Below, piece by piece: positions 1 to 64,000 of a stretch of DNA of 64,000 nt; position 1 is the first letter of the stretch; every line of letters begins with the position of its first letter. Source of the DNA: Candidatus Nanoarchaeia archaeon (GTDB lineage Archaea; Nanobdellota; Nanobdellia; WJKC01); NCBI GenBank assembly GCA_041653515.1, contig JBAZFG010000002.1, positions 125,632 through 189,631 of the forward strand, given 5' to 3'. Both the position numbers and the translations under genes were made by a program. The notes under the pieces are model-generated. The model was given only the letters and a program-made list of their open reading frames with translations. It had not been told where the DNA came from and ran no database searches.

Positions 1-180
1 AAATATAACTGCGGCAAGCTAATCAGACCATTCATAAAAAAACACAAAAAGGAAGGGGTTAAAAGATTATTGTATAAAAAGTCATTTATAAGTTTTGAAT
101 CATTAAAAAAAGAACCAATTACTTATATGGGCTTTTTATTTATGAAATCTCTGGAGTTTACTGCGTGGTGCTTTGGTATC

Positions 181-1704
181 CTAAGAAGCTTTTTCTGATT
201 TATTACCAGCAATTTTTAACTGCCTTGGTTTAAGTAAATCACTTGTTAGATAAGTTTTTAGTTTTTCAATGCTAAACTTCAAGTTATTGAAACTCATAAG
301 TTTGGGCAATATGTTACTGCAAAAGAAGATTGGATTTAATATATGTTTGATTCTTGTTTTATAAAATCTTTGTCTTGCTTCACCAACCAATTTGTTTAAT
401 TCACTTTCACTGAACTTTTTAGTTGGATAATAAGCATAAGATGTTTCTGCATCAGGAATTTCACTATTTAGCAATCCTTCTTTTTTGTATATATCATACA
501 ACTCAGTTCCTGTATAAGGTTGTGCGATATAAAATATTGCGTGGTCTATTCCAGATTCACAAGCATACTTAATCGTTTTTTCTATATCATCACGTGTTTC
601 ATAGGGGAATCCAATTATAAAATTAGCAGTAGTCCAAATACCTTTTTTGTTCATATATCTAATTAATCTTTTTGTTTTTTCAAGGTCAACAGGTTTTCCA
701 ATGAACTTTAATGTATTCTCAGAGCCGGATTCAATAGGCATACACATTCTATAAAACCCTGCTTTCTTCATTATATCTATTGTTTCTTCATCAAGAATCC
801 ATACACTTAATCCTGCAGGTGCGTTTAAAGTAATCTTCAAATTAGCTTTAATTATCAAATTGCATACTTCTTTAACTCTTTTTTTGTTAAGTATAAATGA
901 GTCGTCATAGATTACTATCTCTTTAGCGCCATATTTGTTATGTAATTCCATTATTTCTTTGAATACTCTTTTTGCAGAGTGAGGCCTCCATCTTCTTCTC
1001 CACATAGTTTTAGTGCTGCAGAAGATGCAGTTGTACGGGCAGCCTCTGCTTGTGACCATGGTACAAATCGGCTGGTTTAAAGCATAATAAAAAGTTTCTT
1101 TACCGTTTTTCATGTAAAAATCCATGTCAAGTGCATCTCTGTCCGGCAATGGAAGTGTATCAATATTATTAATTAGTGGTCTATCTTTGTTTATTATTAC
1201 TCTTCCATTACTTTTGTATGTTAATCCTAACACATTCTTTAAACTTTTCTTGTTACTAATAGCATTGAGTAGCTCTAGAGTTGTTATTTCACCTTCACCT
1301 CTTATTATGTAATCTATATAATTTAGTTTTATCAGGTTCTCATGTTCCATTGTTGGGTGAACCCCGCCGAGGATTATCTTTATAGACTTAAAATTGTCTT
1401 TCAGTACTTTGGCCAAATTAAGAGCATCATCTTTATGTATTGTAAAATTGCTTGATATGCCAATAATATCCGGTTTTATTTTATTTATTTCATTAAAAAT
1501 GTTTTTGTTGTTTATACCCACCCTGTATAAATCTTTCTTTATTCTTGTAACCTTGTTTTGATTTAAGGCTATACAGTCAATTATCTTAACTTTATGTCCG
1601 TTCTTTTTTAAAACTGCAGATATGTATGCTAAACCAAGAGGTTCAGTTATGGTTAATTTTGGGTATTTGCTTATTATTGAGGGTTGTATTAATGCTATTT
1701 TCAT
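181..1704 (-). CDS. B12-binding-domain radical SAM protein (class B rSAM)
   Basis: CxxxCxxC motif 'SRGCPYNCIFCS'; N-terminal 'LGLAYISAVLKKNGHKVKIID' Rossmann-like B12-binding segment; paralogous to 36946..38328. Confidence 0.7.
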   Translation of the reverse strand: MKIALIQPSIISKYPKLTITEPLGLAYISAVLKKNGHKVKIIDCIALNQNKVTRIKKDLYRVGINNKNIFNEINKIKPDIIGISSNFTIHKDDALNLAKVLKDNFKSIKIILGGVHPTMEHENLIKLNYIDYIIRGEGEITTLELLNAISNKKSLKNVLGLTYKSNGRVIINKDRPLINNIDTLPLPDRDALDMDFYMKNGKETFYYALNQPICTMVTSRGCPYNCIFCSTKTMWRRRWRPHSAKRVFKEIMELHNKYGAKEIVIYDDSFILNKKRVKEVCNLIIKANLKITLNAPAGLSVWILDEETIDIMKKAGFYRMCMPIESGSENTLKFIGKPVDLEKTKRLIRYMNKKGIWTTANFIIGFPYETRDDIEKTIKYACESGIDHAIFYIAQPYTGTELYDIYKKEGLLNSEIPDAETSYAYYPTKKFSESELNKLVGEARQRFYKTRIKHILNPIFFCSNILPKLMSFNNLKFSIEKLKTYLTSDLLKPRQLKIAGNKSEKAS

Positions 1705-4430
1705 TTTTTCTCCTTAATAATAAGTTTTCTTATAAACTTAACCAATTGTAAAATCATTAGATAGATTACTATAATTATAAGTGATATGTTTGTAATTAAT
1801 CTTCCTAATCCTATATTATCCTGGTTCTTATGATAAATCCTGATGCTTAATTCTCCTGTTTTATTTATGTAAAAGCTATTCATGAAATAATTAGTTTTTA
1901 TTGAGTTGAATGATTCATTGCCAATAGTGGCAACCCAGTTCTTATCGAAAGTTTCTGTTAAAGTCAAGTAAAAAGGTGAATCTATTGTAATATTCAAAAT
2001 CATTTCTGACGGATTGATTCTTATGAAATTAGTGATGTCAACATTGTTATCTTTGTTTTCATAAGTAGCATTTTCATCAAACATTATTATTGTCTTATTG
2101 CTTAACTCTGAAATCATTTCTTCATAAGTTAATTCATATTCATTATAATCAACTAATTTAATATCATTAATAATATTGTTCTTACCTTGTGAATCAATAG
2201 AAATACAATTATTATTACTGCTTAAATTAATAGTGTAATTAACAATTTTAAATTCATCCTTAATACTAGAAGTTTTGACTTCTTTTATTGTGTTATTAAT
2301 GGAAATAGAAAATCCATCATAATTTGGTCCATCAACATACCTGATTAATAATTCGTATAATCCTTCTTCATTAAGACAGATGTCAAACTTGCTGTTATTT
2401 ATTGTGTAATAACCTTTTGAGTATGTTAATAAAGTAACTATATCCAAGTCATTTAGCATAAAGCGGTATATGCTATCGAAAGACATGTCTTGTATGAACT
2501 GCGGTTTATTTTCTTGAACAATTCTTAATAGATATAAAGCATCATTATTGATTATCCTGTTAATTTCATCACTAAAAGATACTCTGCTGTTTAGCAAACC
2601 GAATAGTAAGTCATTATAACTTTTATTGCAGAATATTATCTTATCCCCGTCTGAATAATTATCAAGAAATTGATTGATAACTCCGTCTTCTTGTTCTCCA
2701 AAGAATATCAAATCATTCTTATCTAAAAAATTGTGATTTAATAATTCTTGATAAGAATCCAATGAACCAATCACTAAATTTTTATGTTCATTTATCTTAA
2801 TTTGTGATACATTATCATTTATGTAAAGAGTGACATCATCACTAAAGCTTTTGTTTTCATATGATTTAAATATTGATTTGTTTATGTACTCTTTATCATC
2901 AAAGAAGTCACCAACTAACATGAAATCATTATGTAATAAAATATATTTTATTCCTAATGCACTAAATAATTTTTTTAATTCTGAAGCATCATTTGAGTTT
3001 AATATATCAAAGTATAGTGACATTATAAACTTGAAATTTAAGTCATTGTAATTATCCTGATAGATAGTATTAAAATACATTGGGAATATTGGTATTGTAT
3101 TATTAGCCCAATCAAATACTAATTGTCCATAACTGAAAGGAAGCCACAAGGCTTTTTGAGTGTCATTTTTGAAGTAATCATTAATATCATAATAACTATT
3201 GGGTATGCTAACTGCTTTAACTTCTCCTTGATTTAATTTAAAATAACCTGATAATAATGGGCAGTTTACTACAATAATTGATACTAATACTATTGATATG
3301 ATAATTTTTTTATACTTTCTTAATTTGTTATTAATCTCCAATAGTCCACTAATAAACTGTGAAAAAAGGAAGGCATAACAAAAGCTTAATACAAAGTTTA
3401 TCTTGTCTGGCTCTCGTATCAACCAAGCCCATGAACCTAATATTGGTATTTTGTTAAGATTTGAATAAATTAATCTTAAAGGCCCAAAAGTTCCTTGGGA
3501 TAATAATAATACTAAAAGTGCTAGTAAAGTGAATGATTTGATTGATTTATCCTTTTTAATTGCTATCGCGCAGAAACTTGCAAATGGCACTATAAATGAC
3601 AATAAATAAGTTATCGGATTACTGTCAGTAGCACCCTTTAAGTAGGATCCTACAAAAAAACCATACAATCTTATTGAATTAGCAATGTTTGAGTTGCTGC
3701 TTAAGAATTCTGATTGACTAAACGGCAGGTGATATATTGTTGTATTTAATCCAGGGAGTACAAAATAACTTATTAATGGAACAAAACAAACAAGAATGAT
3801 GATCATTGTTAAAATTTTGTCTTTGAATTTATGTTTATCAATTAAAATTATGGGTAGCATACACAATGAAGTGTATATTAAATTCCTTGGGTCAAATGAC
3901 ACTATTAGTAACAATAATGACACAACTGGCGAGTATCTTTTATTTTCAAAAGATTTTATCAATGTAAGACAAATTAATGGGGCAATAGAATAACCTAATA
4001 ATATTGCAAAATAACCTAATGATGTTGTATAAACCCAATGATTTAATGTGTAAACCAGGCTTCCTGATAACGCAACTATTATCTTTTGGTTTTGTTTTAA
4101 CTTACCACTTAACTTAATTAGAAGTAAATAAGAACTAAAACTTATCAAGAAATAAACAGAGATGTACAAACATTTTGTTAAGAATTCAAGTGGCAACGGA
4201 ATTGCAGCAATTACCCTCCAAATTAAACTTTGAGGCAAGTCACCACCGCTAGGATAATTGCTTATTGGGTTCCAAGAATAAAAATAATAATTGTTTATGA
4301 TATCCTTATCAAACTGGAATACTAAGTCATTGTACAATGGTAGTCCGGGGTTAAATAATACATTGTGAGTTATTAGAACTGTAAGTAATAGTGAGTAAAC
4401 TAATCCTGTGATTAATATATTATTTTTCAT
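1701..4430 (-). CDS. large polytopic membrane protein, GT-C/YfhO-like putative glycosyltransferase with C-terminal extracytoplasmic domain
   Basis: 909 aa with many N-terminal hydrophobic helices; C-terminal motif 'FDKNWVA...NSFYINKTGELSIRIY' shared with the adjacent 950-aa ORF; 4-nt overlap with the next gene. Confidence 0.45.
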   Translation of the reverse strand: MKNNILITGLVYSLLLTVLITHNVLFNPGLPLYNDLVFQFDKDIINNYYFYSWNPISNYPSGGDLPQSLIWRVIAAIPLPLEFLTKCLYISVYFLISFSSYLLLIKLSGKLKQNQKIIVALSGSLVYTLNHWVYTTSLGYFAILLGYSIAPLICLTLIKSFENKRYSPVVSLLLLIVSFDPRNLIYTSLCMLPIILIDKHKFKDKILTMIIILVCFVPLISYFVLPGLNTTIYHLPFSQSEFLSSNSNIANSIRLYGFFVGSYLKGATDSNPITYLLSFIVPFASFCAIAIKKDKSIKSFTLLALLVLLLSQGTFGPLRLIYSNLNKIPILGSWAWLIREPDKINFVLSFCYAFLFSQFISGLLEINNKLRKYKKIIISIVLVSIIVVNCPLLSGYFKLNQGEVKAVSIPNSYYDINDYFKNDTQKALWLPFSYGQLVFDWANNTIPIFPMYFNTIYQDNYNDLNFKFIMSLYFDILNSNDASELKKLFSALGIKYILLHNDFMLVGDFFDDKEYINKSIFKSYENKSFSDDVTLYINDNVSQIKINEHKNLVIGSLDSYQELLNHNFLDKNDLIFFGEQEDGVINQFLDNYSDGDKIIFCNKSYNDLLFGLLNSRVSFSDEINRIINNDALYLLRIVQENKPQFIQDMSFDSIYRFMLNDLDIVTLLTYSKGYYTINNSKFDICLNEEGLYELLIRYVDGPNYDGFSISINNTIKEVKTSSIKDEFKIVNYTINLSSNNNCISIDSQGKNNIINDIKLVDYNEYELTYEEMISELSNKTIIMFDENATYENKDNNVDITNFIRINPSEMILNITIDSPFYLTLTETFDKNWVATIGNESFNSIKTNYFMNSFYINKTGELSIRIYHKNQDNIGLGRLITNISLIIIVIYLMILQLVKFIRKLIIKEKK

Positions 4431-7279
4431 TTATTATTACCTTTAATTTTTAGTATTACAAATAAGCATAGGGCAAAGTACCCAATAATACCAATTATGC
4501 CACCAATCAATCTGTTAAGTCTTACAATAAAACCTGAAATTATGATTATAAAAAATGATAATGCAAGTAAATTATTATCAGGTTCTTTTAAAAATAAATA
4601 AATTAAATCATTTTTGATTAATTTATTACTAAATTTTTTGAGATTAGTTTTATACACTTTGATTTTTTTTGGATAATCTTTTGCATTTTTGCCATGTTTG
4701 AATGTTAATAATATGTTAAAGCAAATTATTTTGAGAGTTGATATTGTATACACAAAAAATAATTTTATATACTTATACAAGTTTTTAGTGTGATTACTTG
4801 ACAGTATTTTTGGTAATAGGGTAATAATCAATAATATTAAAGTAACTAATGAGATACTTATCCCTGCACTGTAAGTTAATTGTTCAGACTGATACAATCT
4901 AACAGTATAACTACCCGTTTCATTAATATAAAACGCATTAGCGAACCCGTTAACTACAAAATGATTAAATTTAGTGTTATTTGATTCTGCAATCCAGTCC
5001 TCATCATAACTCTCTGAAAAGACTAAGAAGAATGGTTCACTATTGTTTACGTTGATATTGTATTCGGCAGGATTGGTTTTTATGAATGAAATGTCTGCTT
5101 CATGTACTGCATTGTTGTTTTTTTGTTCTATTGTTTCTAGATCATTACTTATTGCAATACTTGCAAGAAGGGCTTCTCCATTGCTTGTAATGTTTATCCT
5201 ATCAGTTGCGCTGCCAAAATAATGCCATGCAATATCAGTTGAATTGCTTGCTATACTATTAGCAATTATACTGCCTGTAAACTTAATGTACAACCCGCCA
5301 GAAGTGTTAATTGGTATTGTAACTATTGAATTTGGCATTAATGTGATTATTGAACTGTCAATGCCGCTGGTGTAAACAACGTTGTACCACCACCAGCCAA
5401 ATGAATAATCAAATAATCTTGCCCAGCCGTTTGAAGCATTGCTTGTTGTTATGAATTCAGAAGGCTTTAATTTAGTTGAATTGATTAACTCAGAATCAAA
5501 GGTGTTGTCATTGATTTCATCAACCAGATTGACAAGCGCGCTGTCATCTTGTTGTATTGCAAAGAAAATCGCGGGTTTTGAACAATTGTAATCAAGCAGG
5601 TTGTTAATATTAGAGTCAACTAATGAGCTGTGCTCTGCAGCGTATATTACTGGAAGACTATTATTAACCTCAAAGACTTTGATATTGTTATAACTATTCA
5701 TTGTTATTTTTGTCTCGTTTAACTGGCTCTTCAAGTAATCAGTTTTAGATAAACCAAATGATGATACAACTTCAGGGTAATTCCTCGCGTATATTGAATA
5801 ATTGCCAAATTCGGAAATAAAATCATCCCTTGATATAACATACTTAATATTTAGTAGTCTTAACAGGCTGCTTAAATTTGAGTCTGACTCACTACGTATT
5901 AAATTTGATAAAAAAGCAGTAACTCTATTGGAATCTGATTCTACACTTATAACTTGATTAAGTGATGATTTTGGTGAGTATGTAATCATAGGGTCAATGC
6001 CTGCATAATCCAATCCTGTCATGCTTATTGGCTGGTCCAAAGGGAAGTAAAGAACCCTATAATCACTAGGGTCATTAATTAATGAATTAGTTATTTCTCC
6101 ATAACCATTACTCCATTGGTAATCTTGTAACTGCCCCATAAAATTTCCTGAAAATAATGGCAGCGCAAACAATATTATTGCAATTGGAAAAAGAATCCTT
6201 TTGCTTTTTAACAGGTTATAACTTGAGCCTAATAACAGTGCATAGCAGAATGCTGGGATAAACAATAAGTGCTGTGATTCCCTAAACAAGCCAATAAGTG
6301 GTATATTCAAGAATGCTTCCCCGAATGGTGGGTTTGGGCCTTTTGATAAGAACAAACCGATTGCAGTGGTTATTATAAAAAACCATATTTGTTTATCCTT
6401 TGATTTAATGTTAGGCAACAGTAGAATTAGTATTAGTGCGCCGCCACCAATTACTGGTATTAACAGCCAGTTCCATATAGCATCAACAAAATATTTGGCA
6501 CCGATTAATAATGGCACTGCAAAAAATGGAGGGGCATTTCTTGTGATTATGTCAATGCTTGTTGAATAATTAATAGTCGAACTTGACGTGCCGAAATTTA
6601 ACAATATTGGCATTAACCAGAATGAATGGGTTAATAACAAACTTGCGGATATAACTAATGAATTAAAAAATAATTTTTTATCTCTCATGAATATAGAATA
6701 ACAAATCATCAACAAAGGCACCATTATAAAGAACTGCAATTGTGTTACAGTAAAAGTTATCAGTATTATTGAGAGAATCAAATTTGTTTTATTGTCCTTT
6801 GATTTTATGAATGACAGGAATAATAATGGTGCAAGCATGTAAGAAAACAAGTAAGTGATGTGGCCTGCGACAACCCTGTTAAAAACAATTGGGTTTAATG
6901 CATATAACAATCCAGATAATATCCCTGCTTTGTTATTCTTTAAGACATGCCTGCTTAATAAAAACATAAAATAAGCACTGCAGAATACAAATGCTACTAT
7001 TAGCATTCTAGTTAAGAAAACACCCCCCAGACCTATTGAGCTTAGTAAACCAAGGCCTGCGTAAAAAAAGAAAACGCTTTGATAGTCCCATGTTGTTCCT
7101 AAATCTCTTTCATTCCATACATAAAAAAGGTTTTCTGATCCCTTGGTTATCATCTCACCAAATTGAGGTATACTCCAGTCATGTCTGTAACCAATTGCTC
7201 CATTTGCAGCCAGAATCCTCCAGGTTACAAGAATGCTTATAATGGCGAATAAGCAGATCACTAAAAAGTTCTTTCTCAC
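4427..7279 (-). CDS. large polytopic membrane protein, tandem paralog of 1701..4430
   Basis: 950 aa, multi-TM; C-terminal 'YDEDWIAE...NAFYINETGSYTVRLY' aligns with the C-terminus of the 909-aa protein. Confidence 0.45.
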   Translation of the reverse strand: MRKNFLVICLFAIISILVTWRILAANGAIGYRHDWSIPQFGEMITKGSENLFYVWNERDLGTTWDYQSVFFFYAGLGLLSSIGLGGVFLTRMLIVAFVFCSAYFMFLLSRHVLKNNKAGILSGLLYALNPIVFNRVVAGHITYLFSYMLAPLLFLSFIKSKDNKTNLILSIILITFTVTQLQFFIMVPLLMICYSIFMRDKKLFFNSLVISASLLLTHSFWLMPILLNFGTSSSTINYSTSIDIITRNAPPFFAVPLLIGAKYFVDAIWNWLLIPVIGGGALILILLLPNIKSKDKQIWFFIITTAIGLFLSKGPNPPFGEAFLNIPLIGLFRESQHLLFIPAFCYALLLGSSYNLLKSKRILFPIAIILFALPLFSGNFMGQLQDYQWSNGYGEITNSLINDPSDYRVLYFPLDQPISMTGLDYAGIDPMITYSPKSSLNQVISVESDSNRVTAFLSNLIRSESDSNLSSLLRLLNIKYVISRDDFISEFGNYSIYARNYPEVVSSFGLSKTDYLKSQLNETKITMNSYNNIKVFEVNNSLPVIYAAEHSSLVDSNINNLLDYNCSKPAIFFAIQQDDSALVNLVDEINDNTFDSELINSTKLKPSEFITTSNASNGWARLFDYSFGWWWYNVVYTSGIDSSIITLMPNSIVTIPINTSGGLYIKFTGSIIANSIASNSTDIAWHYFGSATDRINITSNGEALLASIAISNDLETIEQKNNNAVHEADISFIKTNPAEYNINVNNSEPFFLVFSESYDEDWIAESNNTKFNHFVVNGFANAFYINETGSYTVRLYQSEQLTYSAGISISLVTLILLIITLLPKILSSNHTKNLYKYIKLFFVYTISTLKIICFNILLTFKHGKNAKDYPKKIKVYKTNLKKFSNKLIKNDLIYLFLKEPDNNLLALSFFIIIISGFIVRLNRLIGGIIGIIGYFALCLFVILKIKGNNK

Positions 7280-7287
7280 AACATTTT

Positions 7288-8443
7288 TTACCTTTTTTGT
7301 GTTATAAATGTTTTCTTAACGTTGTTCAGCATGTCAGTTAACTGCAGCATTACTTTTTTGGTTGAGTATTGCTTTGCGTAAGCTTTTAGTCCTGGTCGCG
7401 GTCGCTCTTTTAGTAATTTGATTATTGCGTTAGCCCAATTAATTGCTTTATAAGGCTCGACTAACTCACCGTTTTCCTTGTTTACTAACTCGTTAAGCGG
7501 CCTGACGTTGCTGGCCAGCACTGGCTTGCCAAGAGCCCATGACTCAAGCAATACTAGTCCAAACCCTTCAACAGTGCTTGGGTTAACAACGAATTTTGAT
7601 TCACTGATTATCTTTAATTTATCAGCATGGCTGACCCTGCCAGTAAACGTAATACTGTTATTAACTCCGAGCCTGCGCGCGAGTGCCATTCACTGCTTCT
7701 TCATTGGACCATCACCAACTATTACGAACTTGGCTTTAGGGTCACGGCCGAGCACTGAAAGCATAGCCCTAATTATTGTGTTAACGTTCTTGTAGAAAAC
7801 GTGCCGGCCAATAAAACAAAACTGATTCTTGAGTCCGGCTCGCAGGTTTTTGTAATCAGCCAAGTCAATCATACAAGGCATGACTTTGATTGGCCTCCTA
7901 ATACCAGCCTTAATTAAATTATCCCTGCTGACACTGCTGATAGTGTGAATTAATGCTGGCCTGAATTTGAGGATGATTTTCTCAAGCAATGGACCCATAA
8001 TTCCGAGGCCTTTGCTGACACCTATCTGCCTGCTCCACTTACTTTAGAACGGGCCACTTGAGTAAAAATCAAAGATGCTCATCAAATGAGAGATTTTAAG
8101 AAAATAAGAAACTAAATGAGCACTGACTGCCGGCGTGTAAGTATTAGAGTGAATGACGTCGGAGTCCTTAGCAATTTTCAGGCCAGCCCTGAATGACTTA
8201 ATAATAAATGAAGCATTATTCAACAAGCTCATGTTAAGGTGGCCTTTGTAATCAATTGGCCTGTCAACCAGGTAAACTTGATGCTGTCAATCTTCTCAAA
8301 AGAAGTAGTGCCCCTTAATTGCTGGGTGATAACATTGACTTCATGCTGCGCTTAACTAACTCGCGCGCGTACTGAAAGAACAAGTACTCGCCACCCCCAT
8401 AGATTGCTGGCGGGTATAAGTGAATGAATTGAGTTATTTTCAT
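7288..8443 (-). pseudogene. degraded GT4-family glycosyltransferase (frameshifted copy of 10659..11789)
   Basis: Three collinear ORF fragments (133, 102, 62 aa) plus an N-terminal remnant 'MKITQFIHLYPPAIYGGGEYLFFQYAREL' each align to successive parts of the intact 376-aa GT at 10659..11789, with frame breaks; roughly 75-80% nt identity in aligned stretches. Confidence 0.6.
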
Positions 8444-10662: not shown

Positions 10663-11789
10663 ATTAAAGTTTTGAATATATTTTCTAGTAGTGGCGTGAC
10701 TTTCTTGGTTGAGTATTGTTTGGCGTATTTTTTTATTCCTTGTTTATTTTCTTTTAGCATCTTGTTGATTTTATTTGCCCAGTCGATTGATTTGTAAGGT
10801 TCGGCCAGGTCGCCGTTTTCTTTGTTGATTAATTCATTCATTGGCCTGACATTGCTGGCTATTACTGGTTTGCCTAATGCCCATGACTCGAGTATTATTA
10901 TGCCAAATCCTTCGACTGTGCTTGGGTTGACTACGAATTTTGATTCATTTATTATCCTTAATTTATGCTCGTGACTAACTCGGCCAGTGAATAATACGCT
11001 GCTGCTAACCCCTAATCGTCTGGCTAGTGCCATCCATTGTTTTTTCATTGGTCCGTCACCAACTATTATGAATTTGGTTTTCGGGTTCTTGCCAAGCACT
11101 GATGGCATTGCTTTGATGATTGTGTCAACGTTCTTGTAAAAGACATGCCTACCAACATAACAAAATTGGTTCTTCTCTTCAGTTCTTGGCGTCTTGTAAT
11201 CAGTTAAGTCTATCATGCAGGGCACAACTCTTATTGGTCGCTTAACGCCTGCTTTTATCAAGTCCTCTTTACTGGCGTTGCTGATAGTGTGAATCATTGC
11301 TGGCCTGATTTTTAGTATTATTTTTTCCATTAATGGCCCGATTATACTGAGCCCTTTGCTGACTCCGCGCTGACCACTCCAATTATTCCAGAAACTGCCT
11401 TGAGAGTAAACATCAAAGATGCTGATAACATGGGGTATTTTTAAGCAATAGGATACTGCGTGACCACTTAATGCTGGCGCGTAAGTGTTGGAGTGAATGA
11501 TATCAGAATCCTTAGCTATCTTTAATCCTTTTTTGAATGATTTAATGATGAATGAAGCATTGTTCATTAAACTCATATTCAAGTGGCCTTTGTAATCAAT
11601 TGGTTTGCCGACCCGATGGATTTTAACCCCGTTTAATTCTTCATAGCATTTAGTGCCTTTAAGTCGCTGAGTAATAACATTAACTTCATGGCCTCGTTTG
11701 GCTAATTCTTTAGCGTACTGGAAGAACAAGTACTCGCCGCCGCCGTAGATTGCTGGCGGGTATAATTGACAGAACTGGGTTATTTTCAT
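10659..11789 (-). CDS. GT4-family (GT-B) glycosyltransferase
   Basis: C-terminal 'NPSTVEGFGIIILESWALGKPVIAS' E-x7-E-type motif; N-terminal 'LYPPAIYGGGEY'. Confidence 0.75.
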   Translation of the reverse strand: MKITQFCQLYPPAIYGGGEYLFFQYAKELAKRGHEVNVITQRLKGTKCYEELNGVKIHRVGKPIDYKGHLNMSLMNNASFIIKSFKKGLKIAKDSDIIHSNTYAPALSGHAVSYCLKIPHVISIFDVYSQGSFWNNWSGQRGVSKGLSIIGPLMEKIILKIRPAMIHTISNASKEDLIKAGVKRPIRVVPCMIDLTDYKTPRTEEKNQFCYVGRHVFYKNVDTIIKAMPSVLGKNPKTKFIIVGDGPMKKQWMALARRLGVSSSVLFTGRVSHEHKLRIINESKFVVNPSTVEGFGIIILESWALGKPVIASNVRPMNELINKENGDLAEPYKSIDWANKINKMLKENKQGIKKYAKQYSTKKVTPLLENIFKTLI

Positions 11790-40141: not shown

Positions 40142-40178
40142 TAAGGAAATGTTAGGGTGATTAGTTTTTTAATTGTTT

Positions 40179-40339
40179 GCCCCCGCAGTTTGGAATAAAC
40201 TTTTTTCAATAAGCAGGGGGATCAGGAAATGCCTAAAACTGAGGGGGATGTGCCCCCGCGGTTTGGAATAAACTTTTTTCAATAAGCAGGGGGATCAGGA
40301 AATGCCTAAAACTGAGGGGGATGTGCCCCCGCGGTTTGG
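40179..40339. repeat. tandem direct repeat, 73-bp unit x 2.2, GC-rich hairpin element
   Basis: Units 40179-40251 and 40252-40324 differ at one position (a/g); a third partial unit 40325-40339 ends at the aglB stop codon; the reverse complement matches the elements at 57371 and 62941. Confidence 0.85.
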
Positions 40340-42965: not shown

Positions 42966-43784
42966 TCATACTCCTAATGAAATGTAAACCTCTAATAATC
43001 CCCCGATTATTAATACAATGCTTGCAAGCACTATTAAATCAATGGAATCAAGTAATACCTCTTTAAATTTATTACTCTTAGGGTCATGCCTTATTACTGC
43101 TGCACTAATAATGCCTCCTGCAATGCCTGCGAGGAAGTAAGCAATTAATTCTGGCAGACCATGAACTAAGTAACGACCAAACCCTAGTGGCACTGCCTGA
43201 AAATAAGAAGACCAATTACTAATATTGGTTTTAATTGCGTTGCCAATAGCGACGCCGAGCACGCTTGAGTTCCACGTGATAATAAATATTGCGCCCGCCC
43301 CGTATAATAAGCTAAATATTAAGCAGAAGAGTAATACTTTGAAGTTATTGGCTAATATTATTTTTAATAAATCTGTTTGCACTGCATTGCCTTGAATGGC
43401 TGATGAGTTAATGCTTCTGATAGTGTTTATTTGCTCTGAGAATATTTTTGCGTTAAGGCTGTCAGGCATTATGACATACCATGTGGTGAATGTTATTAAT
43501 AATCCCATTGACATGAAGAATATTACGCCGAGCACATCTTTATGATTGCCAATTAAGGGGTATTGTTTTTTGGTGAAATCCTCTGATTCCTCTCGTTTTA
43601 GCACGTTAACTAGTAATGGCACGCCAGCCATTGTTGTAAGAAAAACCATACTTAATGACGGGTCTGATGGGAATAACCACATGCTGACTACTAAGCCAAG
43701 GCTCGCGTATATCACGCCTAATATTGTCATTTTCCAAGGCTTGGCTCTAACTTCTTTACTGCTTAATATTGACTCAAAAACCAT
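42966..43784 (-). CDS. integral membrane protein (SpoIIM/DUF95-like)
   Basis: 272 aa, about six hydrophobic helices; no catalytic motif recognised. Confidence 0.35.
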   Translation of the reverse strand: MVFESILSSKEVRAKPWKMTILGVIYASLGLVVSMWLFPSDPSLSMVFLTTMAGVPLLVNVLKREESEDFTKKQYPLIGNHKDVLGVIFFMSMGLLITFTTWYVIMPDSLNAKIFSEQINTIRSINSSAIQGNAVQTDLLKIILANNFKVLLFCLIFSLLYGAGAIFIITWNSSVLGVAIGNAIKTNISNWSSYFQAVPLGFGRYLVHGLPELIAYFLAGIAGGIISAAVIRHDPKSNKFKEVLLDSIDLIVLASIVLIIGGLLEVYISLGV

Positions 43785-44838
43785 TAATCACCTCTAATTT
43801 TCGGCTCCTGCCTTGGAATCCTTCGCCAGTATCAGTTGCTTTGATTAGTCCTTGTTTTCTTAATCGGTTAATGTAGCGCCTAAAACTCCTAATGCTTAAT
43901 TCGCCATGTATCTCGCGGTAATTCTTGTAAGCATCGCCGCTAATAATATTAGGGTTCTCTTTTATGATGTTAATTATTTTTTCTTCATGGTCGCTTAATT
44001 CCTGAGGTAAGTTAATAGTTATTGTCTTAATTGCTTCTTCAACGTGCTTGACTGTTATTTTCCTGCTAGCATCCCGCTCAGCCCTGCGTCCAGCTTCTAA
44101 TAATAAGTTGATTGCTTTCCTAACATCTGTGCCTGAATTAATACTTACTTCATGGACTACTCCTTCGCTTACAACACTTGGGTGGAACGCTTGTTTGGCC
44201 CTGCGTTCAATAATGTTTTTCATCTCGCGCGTAGTGTATGGCTTGAACTCCATGTTATTAAGGTTTAATCGCGACATTAATCGTGGTTCAATATAATTCT
44301 TGTACTTAGGGTTGTTAGTGACCATTAAGATGCATACCCGTTCTAAGTTTAGTAATGAGTATATTATGTCAAGGTCTTTTATTTTATCCACTTCATCAAG
44401 GCAGACTACTGCTCCTTTTTCCCTTAGTTTTCTCATCGCGTTATTAAGTATTTCTTCGGTCGGCACACCTTTAGGGGGATAGAGCATGCCTAATCGTCGC
44501 GCTATCTCTAAAGCTATTGTGTGAGTGGTCTGGCTTTCCCAGCAATTAATGAATACTGGTACAATATCGCTGGTCTCTTTTAATTCGTTAAAAATATATT
44601 TGATGCTCGCTGTCTTGCCAAGCCCAGGCATGCCGTGGATGAATACATTACTCCCTAAGCGATTTTGTAATAATGGTTTGATGAAACTAGCTATTTCTTT
44701 AATCTCATTGTCCCGTTCAGGCATTTCTTCTGGTTGGAATTTATAATCGAGAATAGTTTCATCCTTGAACAAAGTCTCGTTGTCCATCAGGATATCTTTG
44801 AATAAGCCCCCCATAATAGTAAGGGACACGCTAATCAT
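43774..44838 (-). CDS. orc1: Orc1/Cdc6 replication initiator (AAA+)
   Basis: Walker A 'GMPGLGKTAS'; 'VCLDEVD' Walker B; C-terminal winged-helix region. Confidence 0.85.
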   Translation of the reverse strand: MISVSLTIMGGLFKDILMDNETLFKDETILDYKFQPEEMPERDNEIKEIASFIKPLLQNRLGSNVFIHGMPGLGKTASIKYIFNELKETSDIVPVFINCWESQTTHTIALEIARRLGMLYPPKGVPTEEILNNAMRKLREKGAVVCLDEVDKIKDLDIIYSLLNLERVCILMVTNNPKYKNYIEPRLMSRLNLNNMEFKPYTTREMKNIIERRAKQAFHPSVVSEGVVHEVSINSGTDVRKAINLLLEAGRRAERDASRKITVKHVEEAIKTITINLPQELSDHEEKIINIIKENPNIISGDAYKNYREIHGELSIRSFRRYINRLRKQGLIKATDTGEGFQGRSRKLEVINGF

Positions 44839-57336: not shown

Positions 57337-57488
57337 TTAGAAATCACTGAGTTTTTTCTGCTTAGTCCCTAACCGCAGGGAGGGGTGACCCCTCCCTTCA
57401 GTTTTAGGGTAATCCTGATTCCCACCCCCCTACGATTGTAATTATGCCAGAGACATGTTAGAAATCACTGAGTTTTTTCTGCTTAGTC
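57337..57488. repeat. GC-rich hairpin element (57371-57430) bracketed by a perfect 31-bp direct repeat (57337-57367 / 57458-57488)
   Basis: 'ttagaaatcactgagttttttctgcttagtc' occurs twice; the second copy is the last 10 codons plus stop of nucS; between them lies 'aaccgcagggaggggtgacccctcccttcagttttagggtaatcctgattcccacc'. Confidence 0.8.
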
Positions 57489-58210
57489 TTATCAACTATG
57501 TTCCTGTTTGGTGGTTCTACTTGGCAGAACTTAAAGCTCCAGTCATGGAGCATTTGTTCAGCGTTCTTAGTGATGCCTGGCGCTGCGATGTAACCAATGA
57601 CTTTGTCAATTCCTTTAGCTGCCTTGATTCTCTCAACGTAGCGCCTTAGTTGTTGGACCGCGCTAAGCCCGGCAGTCACTCGCTTACACTCAATAATTAT
57701 TAATGCTCCTTCACCATCATGGCCCATCACGTCAATAAAACCATATTTTGTTTGTTCTTCAAGGCTGACTGGCCTAAAGTCAATGCTAATAATATGTGGG
57801 TGCTCATAAATCATGCGCGCCATGTCAGCTTCACTGCCCATAATCATTACTTCTTCATCATCGCTTAGTTGGCCTGAGATTAGTAAGTCAATGCTGGTTA
57901 TTTTAATGACCATTTGTTCTCTTGGGTTGATTGATTCAGCAGTGATGAATAATGAGTCGCCAGCTTCAACCCTGATGCTCGCGCCTTCTTTTATCCAGTT
58001 AACTGGGTTCCTGCCTGTTGGTTTGTGAACTAATAGTGTTTTGTCTGTTTTGATGGTGACTGCCCTGCCGCCCCGCTCGAGCTTTGAGTAAGCCCTGCCT
58101 TCATACTTAACCTCGCACTCGCAGTAAAGTGTGATTAACTCGTTTCGCTTGAGTGCTTGGTCTAATACGTTCTTGGTTGTATCAAAATCAGGTTTAACAT
58201 AATTGCTCAT
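57458..58210 (-). CDS. nucS: endonuclease NucS/EndoMS
   Basis: C-terminal RecB-like nuclease motif 'GFIDVMGHDGEGALIIIECKR'; N-terminal dimerisation/ssDNA-binding-like region. Confidence 0.7.
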   Translation of the reverse strand: MSNYVKPDFDTTKNVLDQALKRNELITLYCECEVKYEGRAYSKLERGGRAVTIKTDKTLLVHKPTGRNPVNWIKEGASIRVEAGDSLFITAESINPREQMVIKITSIDLLISGQLSDDEEVMIMGSEADMARMIYEHPHIISIDFRPVSLEEQTKYGFIDVMGHDGEGALIIIECKRVTAGLSAVQQLRRYVERIKAAKGIDKVIGYIAAPGITKNAEQMLHDWSFKFCQVEPPNRNIVDKTKQKKLSDF

Positions 58211-62791: not shown

Positions 62792-62935
62792 GGGCCCGTA
62801 GCGCAGTTTGGATAGCGCGACAGGCTTCTACACTCGACGCTTCGCGTCTCGTTCCGTCCTTCGGACGGCCGCTCGCTTAAAACGAGCGGGGGTGAGGATA
62901 CCTGTAGGTCGTGGGTTCAAATCCCTCCGGGCTCG
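62792..62935 (+). tRNA. tRNA-Arg(TCT) with 69-nt intron at canonical position 37/38
   Basis: Acceptor GGGCCCG/CGGGCTC, D-stem GCGC/GCGC, anticodon stem ACAGG/CCTGT separated by 'CTTCTA'+intron+'A'; T-loop TTCAAAT; one T-stem mismatch; the intron carries two hairpins (ccgtcc-ttc-ggacgg; gctcg-cttaaaa-cgagc). Confidence 0.7.
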
Positions 62936-62940
62936 CACGA

Positions 62941-62995
62941 AAACCGCAGGGAGGGGAGACCCCTCCCTTCAGTTCATCTCCTGATTCCCACCTCC
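62941..62995 (+). repeat. GC-rich hairpin element, copy immediately 3' of tRNA-Arg
   Basis: 'aaccgcagggaggggagacccctcccttcagtt...cctgattcccacc' is nearly identical to 57371-57430; 9-bp stem agggagggg/cccctccct. Confidence 0.8.
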
Positions 62996-63179
62996 TTGAC
63001 AATTTGCGCCAGGGGTGCTGAAATATTAATCTGCACGAAGTTTTGGATGATTAGTCCAATTTACTCCGGGCTCACACTCAAACTCGGCTACGCCTCGTTT
63101 TCGTTCTGTTTCGCTAGAAGGCTTGTTGTTTTTTAGAGCTACAAACTTATAATTATTAATTGCATTGTTTTTTAACTGG

Positions 63180-64000
63180 ATGAAAGTTGTTGAGCAGTTT
63201 CTTGGTAGTAAGAAAGGTGACTTATCTGTTTGTGAGGATAATTTAATATTATCTAATCGTTATATTGGCGTTGTTGATGGTGGGACTGATAAGTCTGGGC
63301 TTGATTGGGGTGGTCAGCTTGGCGGTAAATTATTATCTGATTTAGTGAAGCGCGTTTTTGAGACTAATGACTTGCCTGTTGATAAGATTGAAGCTTTAAT
63401 TAGAACTGAGTTCGGGCGCTTGGCTCGTGGGTTTGGCATTGATTTGGGCAATAAGTTTAACTTACCTGATGCTGCGTTGGTTGTTTATGATAGTGTTAAG
63501 CAGTTGGTTTATTATGTTGGTGATTGCAAGCTGCGTTTTGTTTATGATGATGGTTCATTAAGCGAGCAATTAATCCCTGAGTTAAAGATTGATTTGATTA
63601 ATGCTTCCTTGCGCAAAGCAGTTATTGACTCATTTAAGCAGTTAGGCTTTGACCCGTTTAAGGGTGGTTTTGATTATGGTCGCGAGTTCATTAAGCCATT
63701 ATTATTAAAGCAGTCATTGCTAGCTAACTCTAAGCAGGTTGGTGAGTGGTTTATGGGTATTCCTTACGAGTTAGTTAAGTTTAGTATTATCAATGGTGTT
63801 GATAAGATAGTTTTTAATGAGTTAAGAGTGCCTAAGAATGTTAGTCAGTTAATAATGGGTTCTGATGGTTTTATTGAATTGAAGCGGACGTTAAAGCAGA
63901 GTCTTAATCATTTGAAAAAGACAATAAGTATTGACCCTCATCGGTGCGGCAAGTACCCGTCAACCAAAGGGGTTAGTCAGGGGATGGCTTATCCTGATGA
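63180..64000 (+). CDS. hypothetical protein, 3'-truncated by window end (possible PPM/PP2C-like phosphatase)
   Basis: Open frame from ATG 63180 to the window end; 'VVDGGTDKSG' and 'LIMGSDGF' loosely resemble PPM metal-binding motifs. Confidence 0.35.
   Translation, partial: MKVVEQFLGSKKGDLSVCEDNLILSNRYIGVVDGGTDKSGLDWGGQLGGKLLSDLVKRVFETNDLPVDKIEALIRTEFGRLARGFGIDLGNKFNLPDAALVVYDSVKQLVYYVGDCKLRFVYDDGSLSEQLIPELKIDLINASLRKAVIDSFKQLGFDPFKGGFDYGREFIKPLLLKQSLLANSKQVGEWFMGIPYELVKFSIINGVDKIVFNELRVPKNVSQLIMGSDGFIELKRTLKQSLNHLKKTISIDPHRCGKYPSTKGVSQGMAYPD

What the first reader, a model, noticed from the sequence alone, without database searches (positions are those of the whole stretch)
62925..63079. 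Same hairpin element inserted directly after tRNA-Arg, flanked by a repeat of the tRNA 3' end
Element copy 62941-62995 starts 5 nt after the tRNA discriminator base. It is near-identical to the nucS-proximal copy over 33 nt, and its loop differs (aga vs tga) while the stem is preserved. 'ctccgggctc(g)cac' from the tRNA acceptor/T-arm 3' end (62925-62938) recurs at 63064-63077. tRNA 3' ends are classic integration targets. Together with the nucS case, this suggests a small mobile or integrase-dependent element family that targets and duplicates gene 3' termini.
Basis: seen in the sequence. Interest (0 to 1): 0.62.

Follow-up and report, generated by a model that had tools for sequence, protein, structure and literature searches.

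The report
Tiny hairpin insertion element family, Nanoarchaeia
The hairpin after tRNA-Arg is one copy of a very small non-coding mobile element found at three gene ends in this nanoarchaeal genome and absent from the same sites in relatives; it duplicated 31, 14 or at most 2 host bases on insertion, and nothing here points to an integrase.

Summary
A tRNA-Arg(TCT) gene with a 69-nt intron ends at 62935. A 125-nt insert (62939-63063) follows and is bracketed by a 13/14 repeat of the tRNA 3' end (62925-38 and 63064-77).

Its first ~55 nt recur after nucS. The shared core is NNN-AACCGC, a G/C hairpin, TCAGTT(TTAGG) and TCCTGAT(T)CCC. The rest of each insert (the "tail") is unrelated between loci.

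Relatives with conserved gene order have empty sites at all three loci. Host duplications are 31 nt (nucS), 14 nt (tRNA) and at most 2 nt (STT3). At STT3 the insert is 2.2 tandem units whose terminal repeat belongs to the element. The repeats differ in sequence at each locus. No integrase, transposase, RT or Cas1 domain was found in about 50 window ORFs. No copy was found in other genomes, metagenomes or viruses.

Best reading: a lineage-specific, non-autonomous mini-element. It inserts at staggered breaks in the few bases between a gene's end and the next promoter. It has one fixed, hairpin-bearing end and one variable end. The enzyme is unknown. RNA-templated, target-primed copying is my favoured guess (~25-30%). 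The integrase reading is only weakly supported.

The parts
62792..62935 (+). tRNA-Arg(TCT) gene with a 69-nt intron at 62831-62899 (between positions 37 and 38); discriminator G at 62935
   Evidence: Rfam RF00005, 49.7 bits; sequence read; ARAGORN finds nothing. Orthologous tRNA-Arg sits next to the MFS gene in relatives L015 and L013.
62925..62938 (+). Left copy of the 14-nt target repeat: tRNA positions 63-73 plus 3 nt (CTCCGGGCTCGCAC)
62939..63063 (+). Locus 2 insert (125 nt). Conserved core is 62939-62998 (gaa-AACCGC, stem 62948-56 / loop AGA / stem 62960-68, TCAGTT, TCCTGATTCCCACC at 62979-92). Locus-specific tail is 62999-63063.
   Evidence: Absent after tRNA-Arg in L015 and L013. Identical in Logan contig L020.
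63064..63077 (+). Right copy of the target repeat (CTCCGGGCTCACAC), displaced from the tRNA. It carries discriminator A, as the relatives' tRNAs do.
57337..57367 (+). Locus 1: left copy of the 31-nt target duplication (antisense of the last 28 nt of nucS plus its stop codon)
   Evidence: 31/31 identical to 57458-57488
57368..57457 (+). Locus 1 insert (90 nt). Core is 57368-57432 (cct-AACCGC, stem 57377-85 / loop TGA / stem 57389-97, TCAGTTTTAGGG, TCCTGATTCCCACC at 57413-26). Tail is 57433-57457.
   Evidence: Empty site in L012, whose nucS is 90% identical at protein level. Logan contigs L001 and L018 break exactly at the 31-nt repeat.
57458..57488 (+). Locus 1: right copy of the duplication, which is the functional 3' end of nucS (gene 57458..58210, minus strand)
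40178..40339 (-). Locus 3: 162-nt insertion directly after the stop codon (40340-42) of the STT3/aglB gene. It holds two full 73-nt units (40267-40339 and 40194-40266) plus a 16-nt fragment (40178-40193) that keeps the hairpin-proximal end. Core: cca-AACCGC, GGGGG / cacat / CCCCC, TCAGTTTTAGG, TTCCTGATCCCCC.
   Evidence: Relatives L021 and L023 have only 34-36 nt between STT3 and the GT4 gene. Logan contig L053 confirms the right junction.

Best explanation
The region is one copy of a lineage-specific family of miniature, non-coding, non-autonomous insertion elements in a Candidatus Nanoarchaeia genome. The inserts are 73-125 nt.

Anatomy (shown). Every copy starts with the same ~55-nt core. 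The core is a fixed end NNN-AACCGC, a G/C-rich hairpin, TCAGTT(TTAGG) and TCCTGAT(T)CCC. After the core comes a tail that is unrelated between loci. So one end is constant and the other is variable.

Mobility (shown). The insertions are absent from the same sites in relatives. Each sits in the few bases between a gene's end and the next promoter. The host bases duplicated are 31, 14 and at most 2.

Mechanism (inferred). Insertion happens at two nicks on opposite strands a variable distance apart, followed by gap filling. It is not site-specific recombination at a common att site. Copying starts from the hairpin-proximal end. That would explain why this end is constant, why the only fragment (16 nt at 40178-93) retains it, and why head-to-tail units occur.

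Strand (inferred). The strand on which the hairpin lies 9 nt from the 3' end folds better at all three loci, through G-U or G-T pairs. This suggests a single-stranded intermediate. My favoured version is an element RNA copied by a trans-acting reverse transcriptase primed on the nicked target, as for SINEs. I give that version about 25-30%. The enzyme has not been identified.
For: - Family membership: a core profile finds four full copies in the window at E 6e-19 to 3e-15, and none in about 100 kb of relatives' DNA.
- Empty sites: nucS locus in L012; tRNA-Arg locus in L015 and L013; STT3-GT4 locus in L021 and L023, 34-36 nt against 35 + 162 nt here.
- Host-derived duplications: 31/31 at nucS, ending exactly at the stop codon, and 13/14 at the tRNA. 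Both tRNA-end copies share the lineage-specific 'ctc' where relatives have 'cct'.
- Independent assembly support.
- Tails are not significantly similar to each other: P = 0.25-0.83.
- Strand asymmetry of folding: -12.8 vs -9.8 kcal/mol at loci 1 and 2, and -10.0 vs -6.2 at locus 3.
- The stem is maintained although it differs: 9 bp with a 3-nt loop versus 5 bp with a 5-nt loop. Two outer pairs change on both sides.
- No recombinase or transposase domains in about 50 window ORFs.
- From the literature: long, variable target duplications are a recognised outcome of some insertions (PMC2853133, PMC2266710), and reverse transcriptases are reported in Nanoarchaeota/DPANN (PMC5758913, PMC8632793).
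Against: - Only three loci in one 64-kb window of one metagenome-assembled genome; the rest of the genome could not be read.
- No enzyme was identified and no RT was seen.
- No SINE-like retroposon is known in prokaryotes (my knowledge).
- The right boundary of the tRNA-locus insert rests only on the 14-nt repeat, because the relatives' downstream DNA cannot be aligned.
- The functional tRNA carries the derived discriminator G while the displaced copy keeps A. This fits an element-supplied 3' end (Campbell-type integration) slightly better than a plain duplication.
- The empty-site relatives are different species (nucS protein 75-90% identical, GT4 protein 68-72% identical). So 'insertion here' is inferred by parsimony rather than by observing loss or gain.
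Confidence: 0.5

Rival explanations
1. Integrase-dependent (Campbell-type) mini integrative element. A small circular element carries a copy of the target gene's 3' end as attP. It recombines with the tRNA-Arg or nucS 3' end, so the flanking repeats are attL and attR.
For: - Repeats cover exactly the 3' ends of tRNA-Arg and nucS and keep both genes intact.
- The displaced tRNA-end copy keeps the ancestral discriminator A while the functional tRNA has G, as expected if the element supplied the new 3' end.
- tRNA 3' ends are classic att sites (my knowledge; also PMC2853133).
- Tandem units at locus 3 resemble repeated integration.
Against: - The repeats at the loci are unrelated in sequence and length (31, 14, none), so there is no common att core.
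- The nucS repeat is 31/31 identical to this host's own sequence and differs at 5 positions from the closest relative. That argues for duplication of the target rather than an imported attP.
- Units of 73-139 bp are implausibly small as double-stranded circles.
- No integrase in the inserts or in about 50 window ORFs.
- Locus 3 has no host repeat.
Confidence: 0.12
2. MITE-like derivative of a DDE transposon whose transposase makes long, variable target duplications, as reported for IS1634, IS1549 and IS1630.
For: IS1549 and IS1634 give direct repeats of 8-514 bp, and the IS1634 family is preferentially found in Euryarchaeota (PMC2266710). IS1630 gives 19-26 bp (PMC2853133). The element here is small, non-coding and multi-copy.
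Against: There are no terminal inverted repeats: the two ends of each insert are unrelated. The right ends differ between copies. No transposase in the window.
Confidence: 0.1
3. Integron-type cassette. The hairpin is an attC-like single-stranded recombination site, and the inserts are ORF-less cassettes placed at secondary sites by an IntI-like recombinase.
For: All copies have AAC ... GTT flanking the hairpin, with a partly unpaired spacer (CGC/TCA) between them. One strand folds better than the other. Content next to a conserved structured site is variable. Two identical units sit in tandem. Integrons and attC clusters exist in archaea, including Nanoarchaeota (PMC9668308).
Against: - The spacer is 3 nt rather than the 5-6 nt of attC. 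There are no extrahelical bases and no recognisable L box (attC architecture from my knowledge; sequence read).
- Integron insertion does not duplicate the target, yet loci 1 and 2 carry 31- and 14-nt host duplications.
- Placing the crossover at G|TT for the nucS locus predicts a disrupted ancestral nucS, which contradicts L012.
- No cassette ORFs and no IntI in the window.
Confidence: 0.06
4. Not a mobile element. It is a functional hairpin module (terminator, small RNA or protein-binding site) that arose or spread by local duplication or recombination, and the tRNA-end repeat is chance.
For: The core is 51/52 identical between loci 1 and 2 while the tails are unrelated, which suggests selection on the core. 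The hairpin lies directly after genes at loci 2 and 3. The 14-nt repeat alone has a chance probability of only about 0.003.
Against: All three loci are empty in relatives. The perfect 31-nt host duplication at nucS is not chance. Orientation relative to neighbouring genes is inconsistent: same sense at the tRNA and STT3, antisense and distal at nucS. No oligo-T tract follows on the relevant strand at locus 1. No Rfam family matches.
Confidence: 0.07
5. Assembly artefact: the repeat-insert-repeat structure was created by misjoining at a shared 31-mer.
For: The nucS repeat is exactly 31 nt, which equals the k used for the Logan assemblies, and the Logan contigs break there.
Against: The breaks show that the 31-mer truly has two left and two right neighbours in the reads. 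The tRNA locus is assembled identically and without a break in Logan. So is the right junction of locus 3. A 90-nt insert lies within a single read length.
Confidence: 0.02

Closest known systems
[quoted passage not shown] 2000; Furuta et al. 2010, PMC2853133)
   Same: Insertion is shown by an empty site in a related genome. The flanking direct repeats are host target sequence tens of bp long, vary in length, and in published cases overlap the 3' end of a gene. No transposase or integrase lies in the insert, and the mechanism is unknown.
   Different: Published cases are kilobase-sized restriction-modification gene units in bacteria, each unique. Here the inserts are 73-125-nt non-coding DNA from one repeated family with a conserved hairpin end, in an archaeon. 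One locus has essentially no duplication.
SINE / non-LTR retroposons (target-primed reverse transcription; my knowledge)
   Same: Non-autonomous and short. Conserved structured 3' end with a variable 5' part. Target duplications of variable length. A 5'-truncated copy that keeps the 3' end. Head-to-tail units, as expected from template jumping.
   Different: No poly-A or simple-repeat tail. No internal promoter identified. No reverse transcriptase identified. Nothing of this kind is known in prokaryotes.
tRNA-targeting integrative elements (tyrosine-recombinase attP/attB, Campbell integration)
   Same: Sits at a tRNA 3' end with a repeat of the tRNA 3' part. The gene stays intact. The displaced copy keeps the ancestral discriminator base.
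   Different: No integrase. 125 nt instead of kilobases. Other family members are flanked by different host sequences or by none.
Casposons (PMC5137440, PMC4779613)
   Same: Archaeal. Reported to integrate at tRNA or protein-gene 3' ends with a duplication of about 14-15 bp, which matches the 14 nt at the tRNA locus.
   Different: Casposons have terminal inverted repeats, Cas1 and PolB genes, and a fixed duplication length. None of these applies here (duplications of 31, 14 and at most 2 nt; no inverted ends).
Integron attC sites / ORF-less cassettes (PMC9668308)
   Same: Hairpin flanked by AAC...GTT. Strand-biased folding. Variable content beside a conserved structured site. Tandem units. Integrons are reported in Nanoarchaeota.
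   Different: Spacer too short, no extrahelical bases, no L box, host duplications present, no IntI seen.
Methanomicrobiaceae multi-copy element (Methanogenium marinum and a related MAG; found)
   Same: Contains the identical 9-bp stem AGGGAGGGG/CCCCTCCCT with a 3-nt loop, inside a repeated non-coding element in an archaeon.
   Different: That element is over 330 nt long with other hairpins and different flanks. There is no similarity outside the stem, so convergence or chance is likely.

Membership tests
Integrase-mediated integrative element at a tRNA gene | Integrase (tyrosine or serine recombinase) gene in or next to the element | tested here: not met
   Inserts are 90-125 nt with no conserved ORF. 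Pfam scans of about 50 window ORFs show no recombinase domain. The rest of the genome could not be read.
Integrase-mediated integrative element at a tRNA gene | Flanking direct repeats (attL/attR) that share one core sequence carried by the element family | tested here: not met
   The repeats are 31 nt of nucS, 14 nt of tRNA-Arg, and none at STT3. They are unrelated to each other.
Integrase-mediated integrative element at a tRNA gene | Repeat covers the 3' part of the tRNA, so the gene stays intact | tested here: met
   62925-38 spans tRNA positions 63-73 plus 3 nt and is repeated at 63064-77.
MITE (DDE-transposon derivative) | Terminal inverted repeats | tested here: not met
   Left and right ends of each insert show no complementarity or similarity. 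The only palindrome is the internal hairpin.
MITE (DDE-transposon derivative) | Short target duplication of fixed length | tested here: not met
   31, 14 and at most 2 nt.
Casposon | Cas1 (casposase) and PolB genes, plus terminal inverted repeats | tested here: not met
   No such domains in the window. No inverted ends.
Casposon | Target duplication of about 14-15 bp at a tRNA or gene 3' end | tested here: inconclusive
   14 nt at the tRNA locus fits; 31 nt at nucS and at most 2 nt at STT3 do not.
Integron attC site / cassette | Conserved AAC (R'') and GTT (R') triplets pairing at the base of a folded single strand | tested here: met
   AAC[C/T]GC ... TCAGTT in all copies.
Integron attC site / cassette | R box and L box separated by a 5-6-nt unpaired spacer, with extrahelical bases in the L box | tested here: not met
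   The spacer is 3 nt (CGC/TCA) with a central G-C pair. The inner stem is perfectly paired with no bulges. The attC architecture is recalled from my knowledge; no attC model was available to run.
Integron attC site / cassette | Insertion without target duplication; IntI present in the genome | tested here: not met
   Host duplications at two loci. No IntI in the window; the whole genome was not testable.
IS200/IS605-type PATE | Subterminal hairpins at both ends, a specific 4-5-nt target, no duplication | tested here: not met
   Only one hairpin per unit. Flanks share no motif. Duplications are present at loci 1 and 2.
SINE-like retroposon (target-primed reverse transcription) | Variable-length target duplications; constant 3' end; 5' variation or truncation | tested here: met
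   Duplications of 31, 14 and at most 2 nt. The hairpin-proximal end is identical in position at all loci. The 16-nt fragment keeps that end. Tails are unrelated.
SINE-like retroposon (target-primed reverse transcription) | Reverse transcriptase available in trans; element transcribed | not testable with these tools
   Only 64 kb of the genome is readable and no RT lies in it. No transcript data. RTs are reported in DPANN generally (PMC5758913, PMC8632793).
Known RNA families (Rfam 15) | Match at or above the gathering score | tested here: not met
   Only the tRNA passes. Relaxed scans of both loci give only E >= 0.67 noise.

The most novel reading that the evidence does not exclude
These are prokaryotic SINE-like retroposons. 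A short RNA with a 3'-terminal hairpin is copied by a trans-acting reverse transcriptase primed on nicked chromosomal DNA at transcription-unit ends. This produces variable target duplications, a 5'-truncated copy and head-to-tail arrays by template jumping. It would be the first non-autonomous, non-intron retrotransposon described in Archaea.
Probability: 0.2. Interest if true: 0.8.

Novelty: new variant of a known kind. Interest (0 to 1): 0.45.

Why it matters
DPANN/Nanoarchaeia genomes are tiny and tightly packed, and their mobile DNA is poorly described. A family of elements under 130 nt inserts precisely between a stop codon (or tRNA end) and the next promoter, and preserves both by duplicating up to 31 host bases. 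That shows how selfish DNA can persist in a streamlined genome.

The combination of one fixed hairpin end, one variable end and a variable duplication fits no standard transposase or integrase scheme. It therefore points to either an RNA- or single-strand-mediated pathway or an undescribed nuclease.

Practically, such elements break short-k assemblies. They also sit at a break in gene order next to tRNA-Arg.

Tried and rejected
- Searches for more copies. Genome collection with GCAGGGAGGGGNNNCCCCTCCCT: only an unrelated Methanomicrobiaceae element and chance hits. Metagenomes: the strict hairpin pattern found nothing, and a second-block pattern found two chance hits in coding DNA. Viral contigs, three patterns: nothing or chance. 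Phage and plasmid BLAST: nothing relevant. A core profile (nhmmer) against all fetched loci found only the window copies.
- 'Accretion' idea: the tRNA-locus insert carries a diverged nucS 3' end at 63026-56, so each hop would take along the previous target repeat. The match is 20/31. P is 0.005 ungapped but only 0.02-0.04 by local alignment, and the intervening tails are not similar. I treat this as unproven.
- The right ends of the inserts as degenerate copies of the left end: not significant.
- A conserved small ORF on the reverse strand of the core: the start codon and reading frame are not conserved between loci (read).
- Rolling-circle product of a 73-nt circle for loci 1 and 2: their tails do not restart the core.
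- The 16-nt terminal repeat at locus 3 as a host target duplication: rejected. Relatives' STT3-GT4 spacers are 34-36 nt, matching the 35 host-like nt that remain here, and the 16 nt are homologous to the element core.
- C/D-box RNA, H/ACA RNA, K-turn, origin-recognition box, dif site and terminator readings of the core: none fits on inspection.
- Sequence beyond the window: look-ups returned only short Logan contigs.

Full report
**What is at the coordinates**

The window is AT-rich (27-45% GC). It comes from a DPANN archaeon: a window protein is 100% identical to one from an NCBI MAG named Candidatus Nanoarchaeia archaeon, on a 191.8-kb contig.

Rfam finds one tRNA, at 62792-62935 (+). Reading the sequence shows it is tRNA-Arg(TCT) with a 69-nt intron at 62831-62899, which explains why ARAGORN reports nothing. 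The discriminator is G62935.

The hairpin pattern AACCGC-AGGGAGGGG-NGA-CCCCTCCCT occurs at 62942-68 and at 57371-97. The single difference is in the loop, and none is expected by chance. A second block, TCCTGATTCCCACC, is also shared.

CTCCGGGCTC[G/A]CAC occurs only at 62925-38 and 63064-77. A window-wide count finds about 20 comparable close repeats. So the chance that one brackets this particular spot is about 0.003.

A Logan assembly of run SRR18595300 is identical across the whole region.

A 73-nt tandem repeat lies at 40178-40339. Read on the minus strand, it is homologous to the same core: cca-AACCGC-GGGGG-cacat-CCCCC-TCAGTTTTAGG-cat-TTCCTGATCCCCC.

A profile built from the cores recovers exactly four full copies in the window, at E 6e-19 to 3e-15. 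It finds nothing in about 100 kb of syntenic DNA from relatives.

All copies share the same end, three variable bases followed by AACCGC. After about 55 nt the sequences become unrelated: comparisons of the tails give P = 0.25-0.83.

**All three loci are insertions**

- nucS locus. In L012 (JGI metagenome, nucS protein 90% identical) the nucS stop codon is followed directly by the promoter and the homologue of the 158-aa gene. The window has an extra 121 nt, made of a 90-nt insert plus a perfect 31-nt copy of the end of nucS including its stop codon.
- tRNA-Arg locus. In L015 and L013 the tRNA next to the same MFS gene is followed at once by T-rich DNA.
- STT3 locus. In L021 and L023 the spacer between STT3/aglB and the GT4 gene is 34-36 nt. 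The window has 35 host-like nt plus a 162-nt insertion directly after the stop codon.

The 162 nt are two full units plus a 16-nt fragment that keeps the hairpin-proximal end. So the terminal repeat there is element sequence, and the host duplication is at most 2 nt.

Logan contigs break at the 31-nt nucS repeat and inside the tandem, as a k=31 graph should if the structures are real.

**What the anatomy implies**

The flanking repeats are host sequence, and they differ in sequence and length at each locus: 31, 14 and at most 2 nt.

Both copies of the tRNA end share this lineage's 'ctc' where relatives have 'cct'. The nucS repeat is identical to this host's sequence but differs at five positions from L012. 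Both are therefore duplications of the local target, not an imported att site.

This argues against a site-specific recombinase with a common core, and against enzymes that give a fixed duplication length (DDE transposases, casposases). No recombinase, transposase, RT or Cas1 domain is found in about 50 window ORFs, although the rest of the genome is unread.

Placement is exact at all three loci. At the two protein-gene loci the next gene's TATA box begins within about 4-7 nt of the stop codon, and within 2-3 nt in the relatives' empty STT3 sites. Only insertions in that gap, or insertions that duplicate the gene end, leave both genes working. Apparent targeting of 3' ends may therefore be survivorship.

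**Strand and structure**

The strand on which the hairpin lies 9 nt from the 3' end folds better at every locus: -12.8 vs -9.8, -12.8 vs -9.8 and -10.0 vs -6.2 kcal/mol (RNA folds). The reason is that AACUG pairs with CGGUU through a G-U pair.

The inner stem is 9 bp with a 3-nt loop at loci 1 and 2, and 5 bp with a 5-nt loop at locus 3. Two outer pairs change on both sides at locus 2.

With three distinct sequences this is suggestive only. Rfam has no matching family.

**Mechanism**

Shown: insertion, a constant hairpin-bearing end, a variable other end, a variable target duplication, a truncated copy that keeps the constant end, and head-to-tail units.

Inferred: insertion at staggered nicks with fill-in, and copying that starts at the hairpin end of a single-stranded intermediate.

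The simplest process giving all of these is target-primed reverse transcription of a small RNA with template jumping. I put that at about 25-30%, because no RT was seen and no prokaryotic precedent exists. RTs are, however, reported in DPANN lineages (PMC5758913, PMC8632793).

[quoted passage not shown] IS1634 and IS1549 give 8-514-bp repeats (PMC2266710).

**Rivals**

The integrase reading keeps one point in its favour. The displaced tRNA end has the discriminator A of both relatives, while the functional tRNA has G. That is what an element-supplied 3' end would give. It is a single nucleotide.

An attC-like reading is prompted by the invariant AAC...GTT around the hairpin and by archaeal integrons (PMC9668308). 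It fails on spacer length, on the absence of extrahelical bases, and on the host duplications.

**Limits**

The evidence is three loci in one window. The family was not found in 185,579 species-representative genomes, in JGI metagenomes or in IMG/VR with the patterns I could afford. The weak nucS-like stretch inside the tRNA-locus insert is not used as evidence.

**Verdict**

This is a real, lineage-specific mini insertion element with unusual insertion signatures. It is a new variant of known kinds of small non-autonomous elements. Its mechanism is open, and interest is moderate.

Noticed in passing
window 62831-62899; L013 2520-2640 (minus); L015 5735-5809 (minus): The orthologous tRNA-Arg(TCT) has one 69-nt intron here, apparently two introns in relative L013 (one in the D-loop region, one at 37/38), and none in L015. 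So intron content changes quickly in this clade. ARAGORN misses the window's gene.
   Followed up: partly
window 62911-62927 and 62935: By my reading, the window's tRNA-Arg has a U50-U64 mismatch in the T stem (gtggg/ccctc) and discriminator G. Both relatives have a G-rich T stem and discriminator A.
   Followed up: partly
window 63078-63112: The GC-richer stretch just after the displaced tRNA-end copy aligns to part of the tRNA's own intron (score 12 against a null of 7.7, P about 0.008). In antisense it aligns to the tRNA's D-arm (12/14). It could be a relic of a rearranged tRNA copy, or chance.
   Followed up: partly
window 62939-63180 and the ORF from 63180 on; L054, L057: Gene order breaks at the tRNA-Arg / element position. 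The downstream 282-aa protein of unknown function has only three homologues in the protein database. In those relatives it lies near ribosomal-protein and RNA-polymerase subunit genes, not next to tRNA-Arg or the MFS gene.
   Followed up: partly
L002, L004-L009 (Methanogenium marinum DSM 15558 and a Methanomicrobiaceae MAG): A multi-copy non-coding element over 330 nt long contains the identical AGGGAGGGG-NNN-CCCCTCCCT hairpin plus a second hairpin (GCAGGTGGGATA...TATCCCACCTGC). It ends at ...GAAGAGCC. There are several copies per genome, with no similarity to the window's element outside the stem.
   Followed up: partly
window 7347-8443 vs 10694-11789: Two glycosyltransferase-containing segments are 73-82% identical over about 1.1 kb, which indicates a paralogous duplication within a large glycosylation gene cluster.
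   Followed up: no
window 1-7279: The lowest-GC part of the window (27-30%, roughly 1-6000) carries two ORFs of 909 and 950 aa with no Pfam match. One has a weak, sub-threshold NCBIfam hit to an MmpA-like lipid transporter. They may be surface proteins or foreign DNA.
   Followed up: no
window 43774-44838: An Orc1/Cdc6 gene lies 3.4 kb from the tandem element copies. No origin-like repeats were examined.
   Followed up: no
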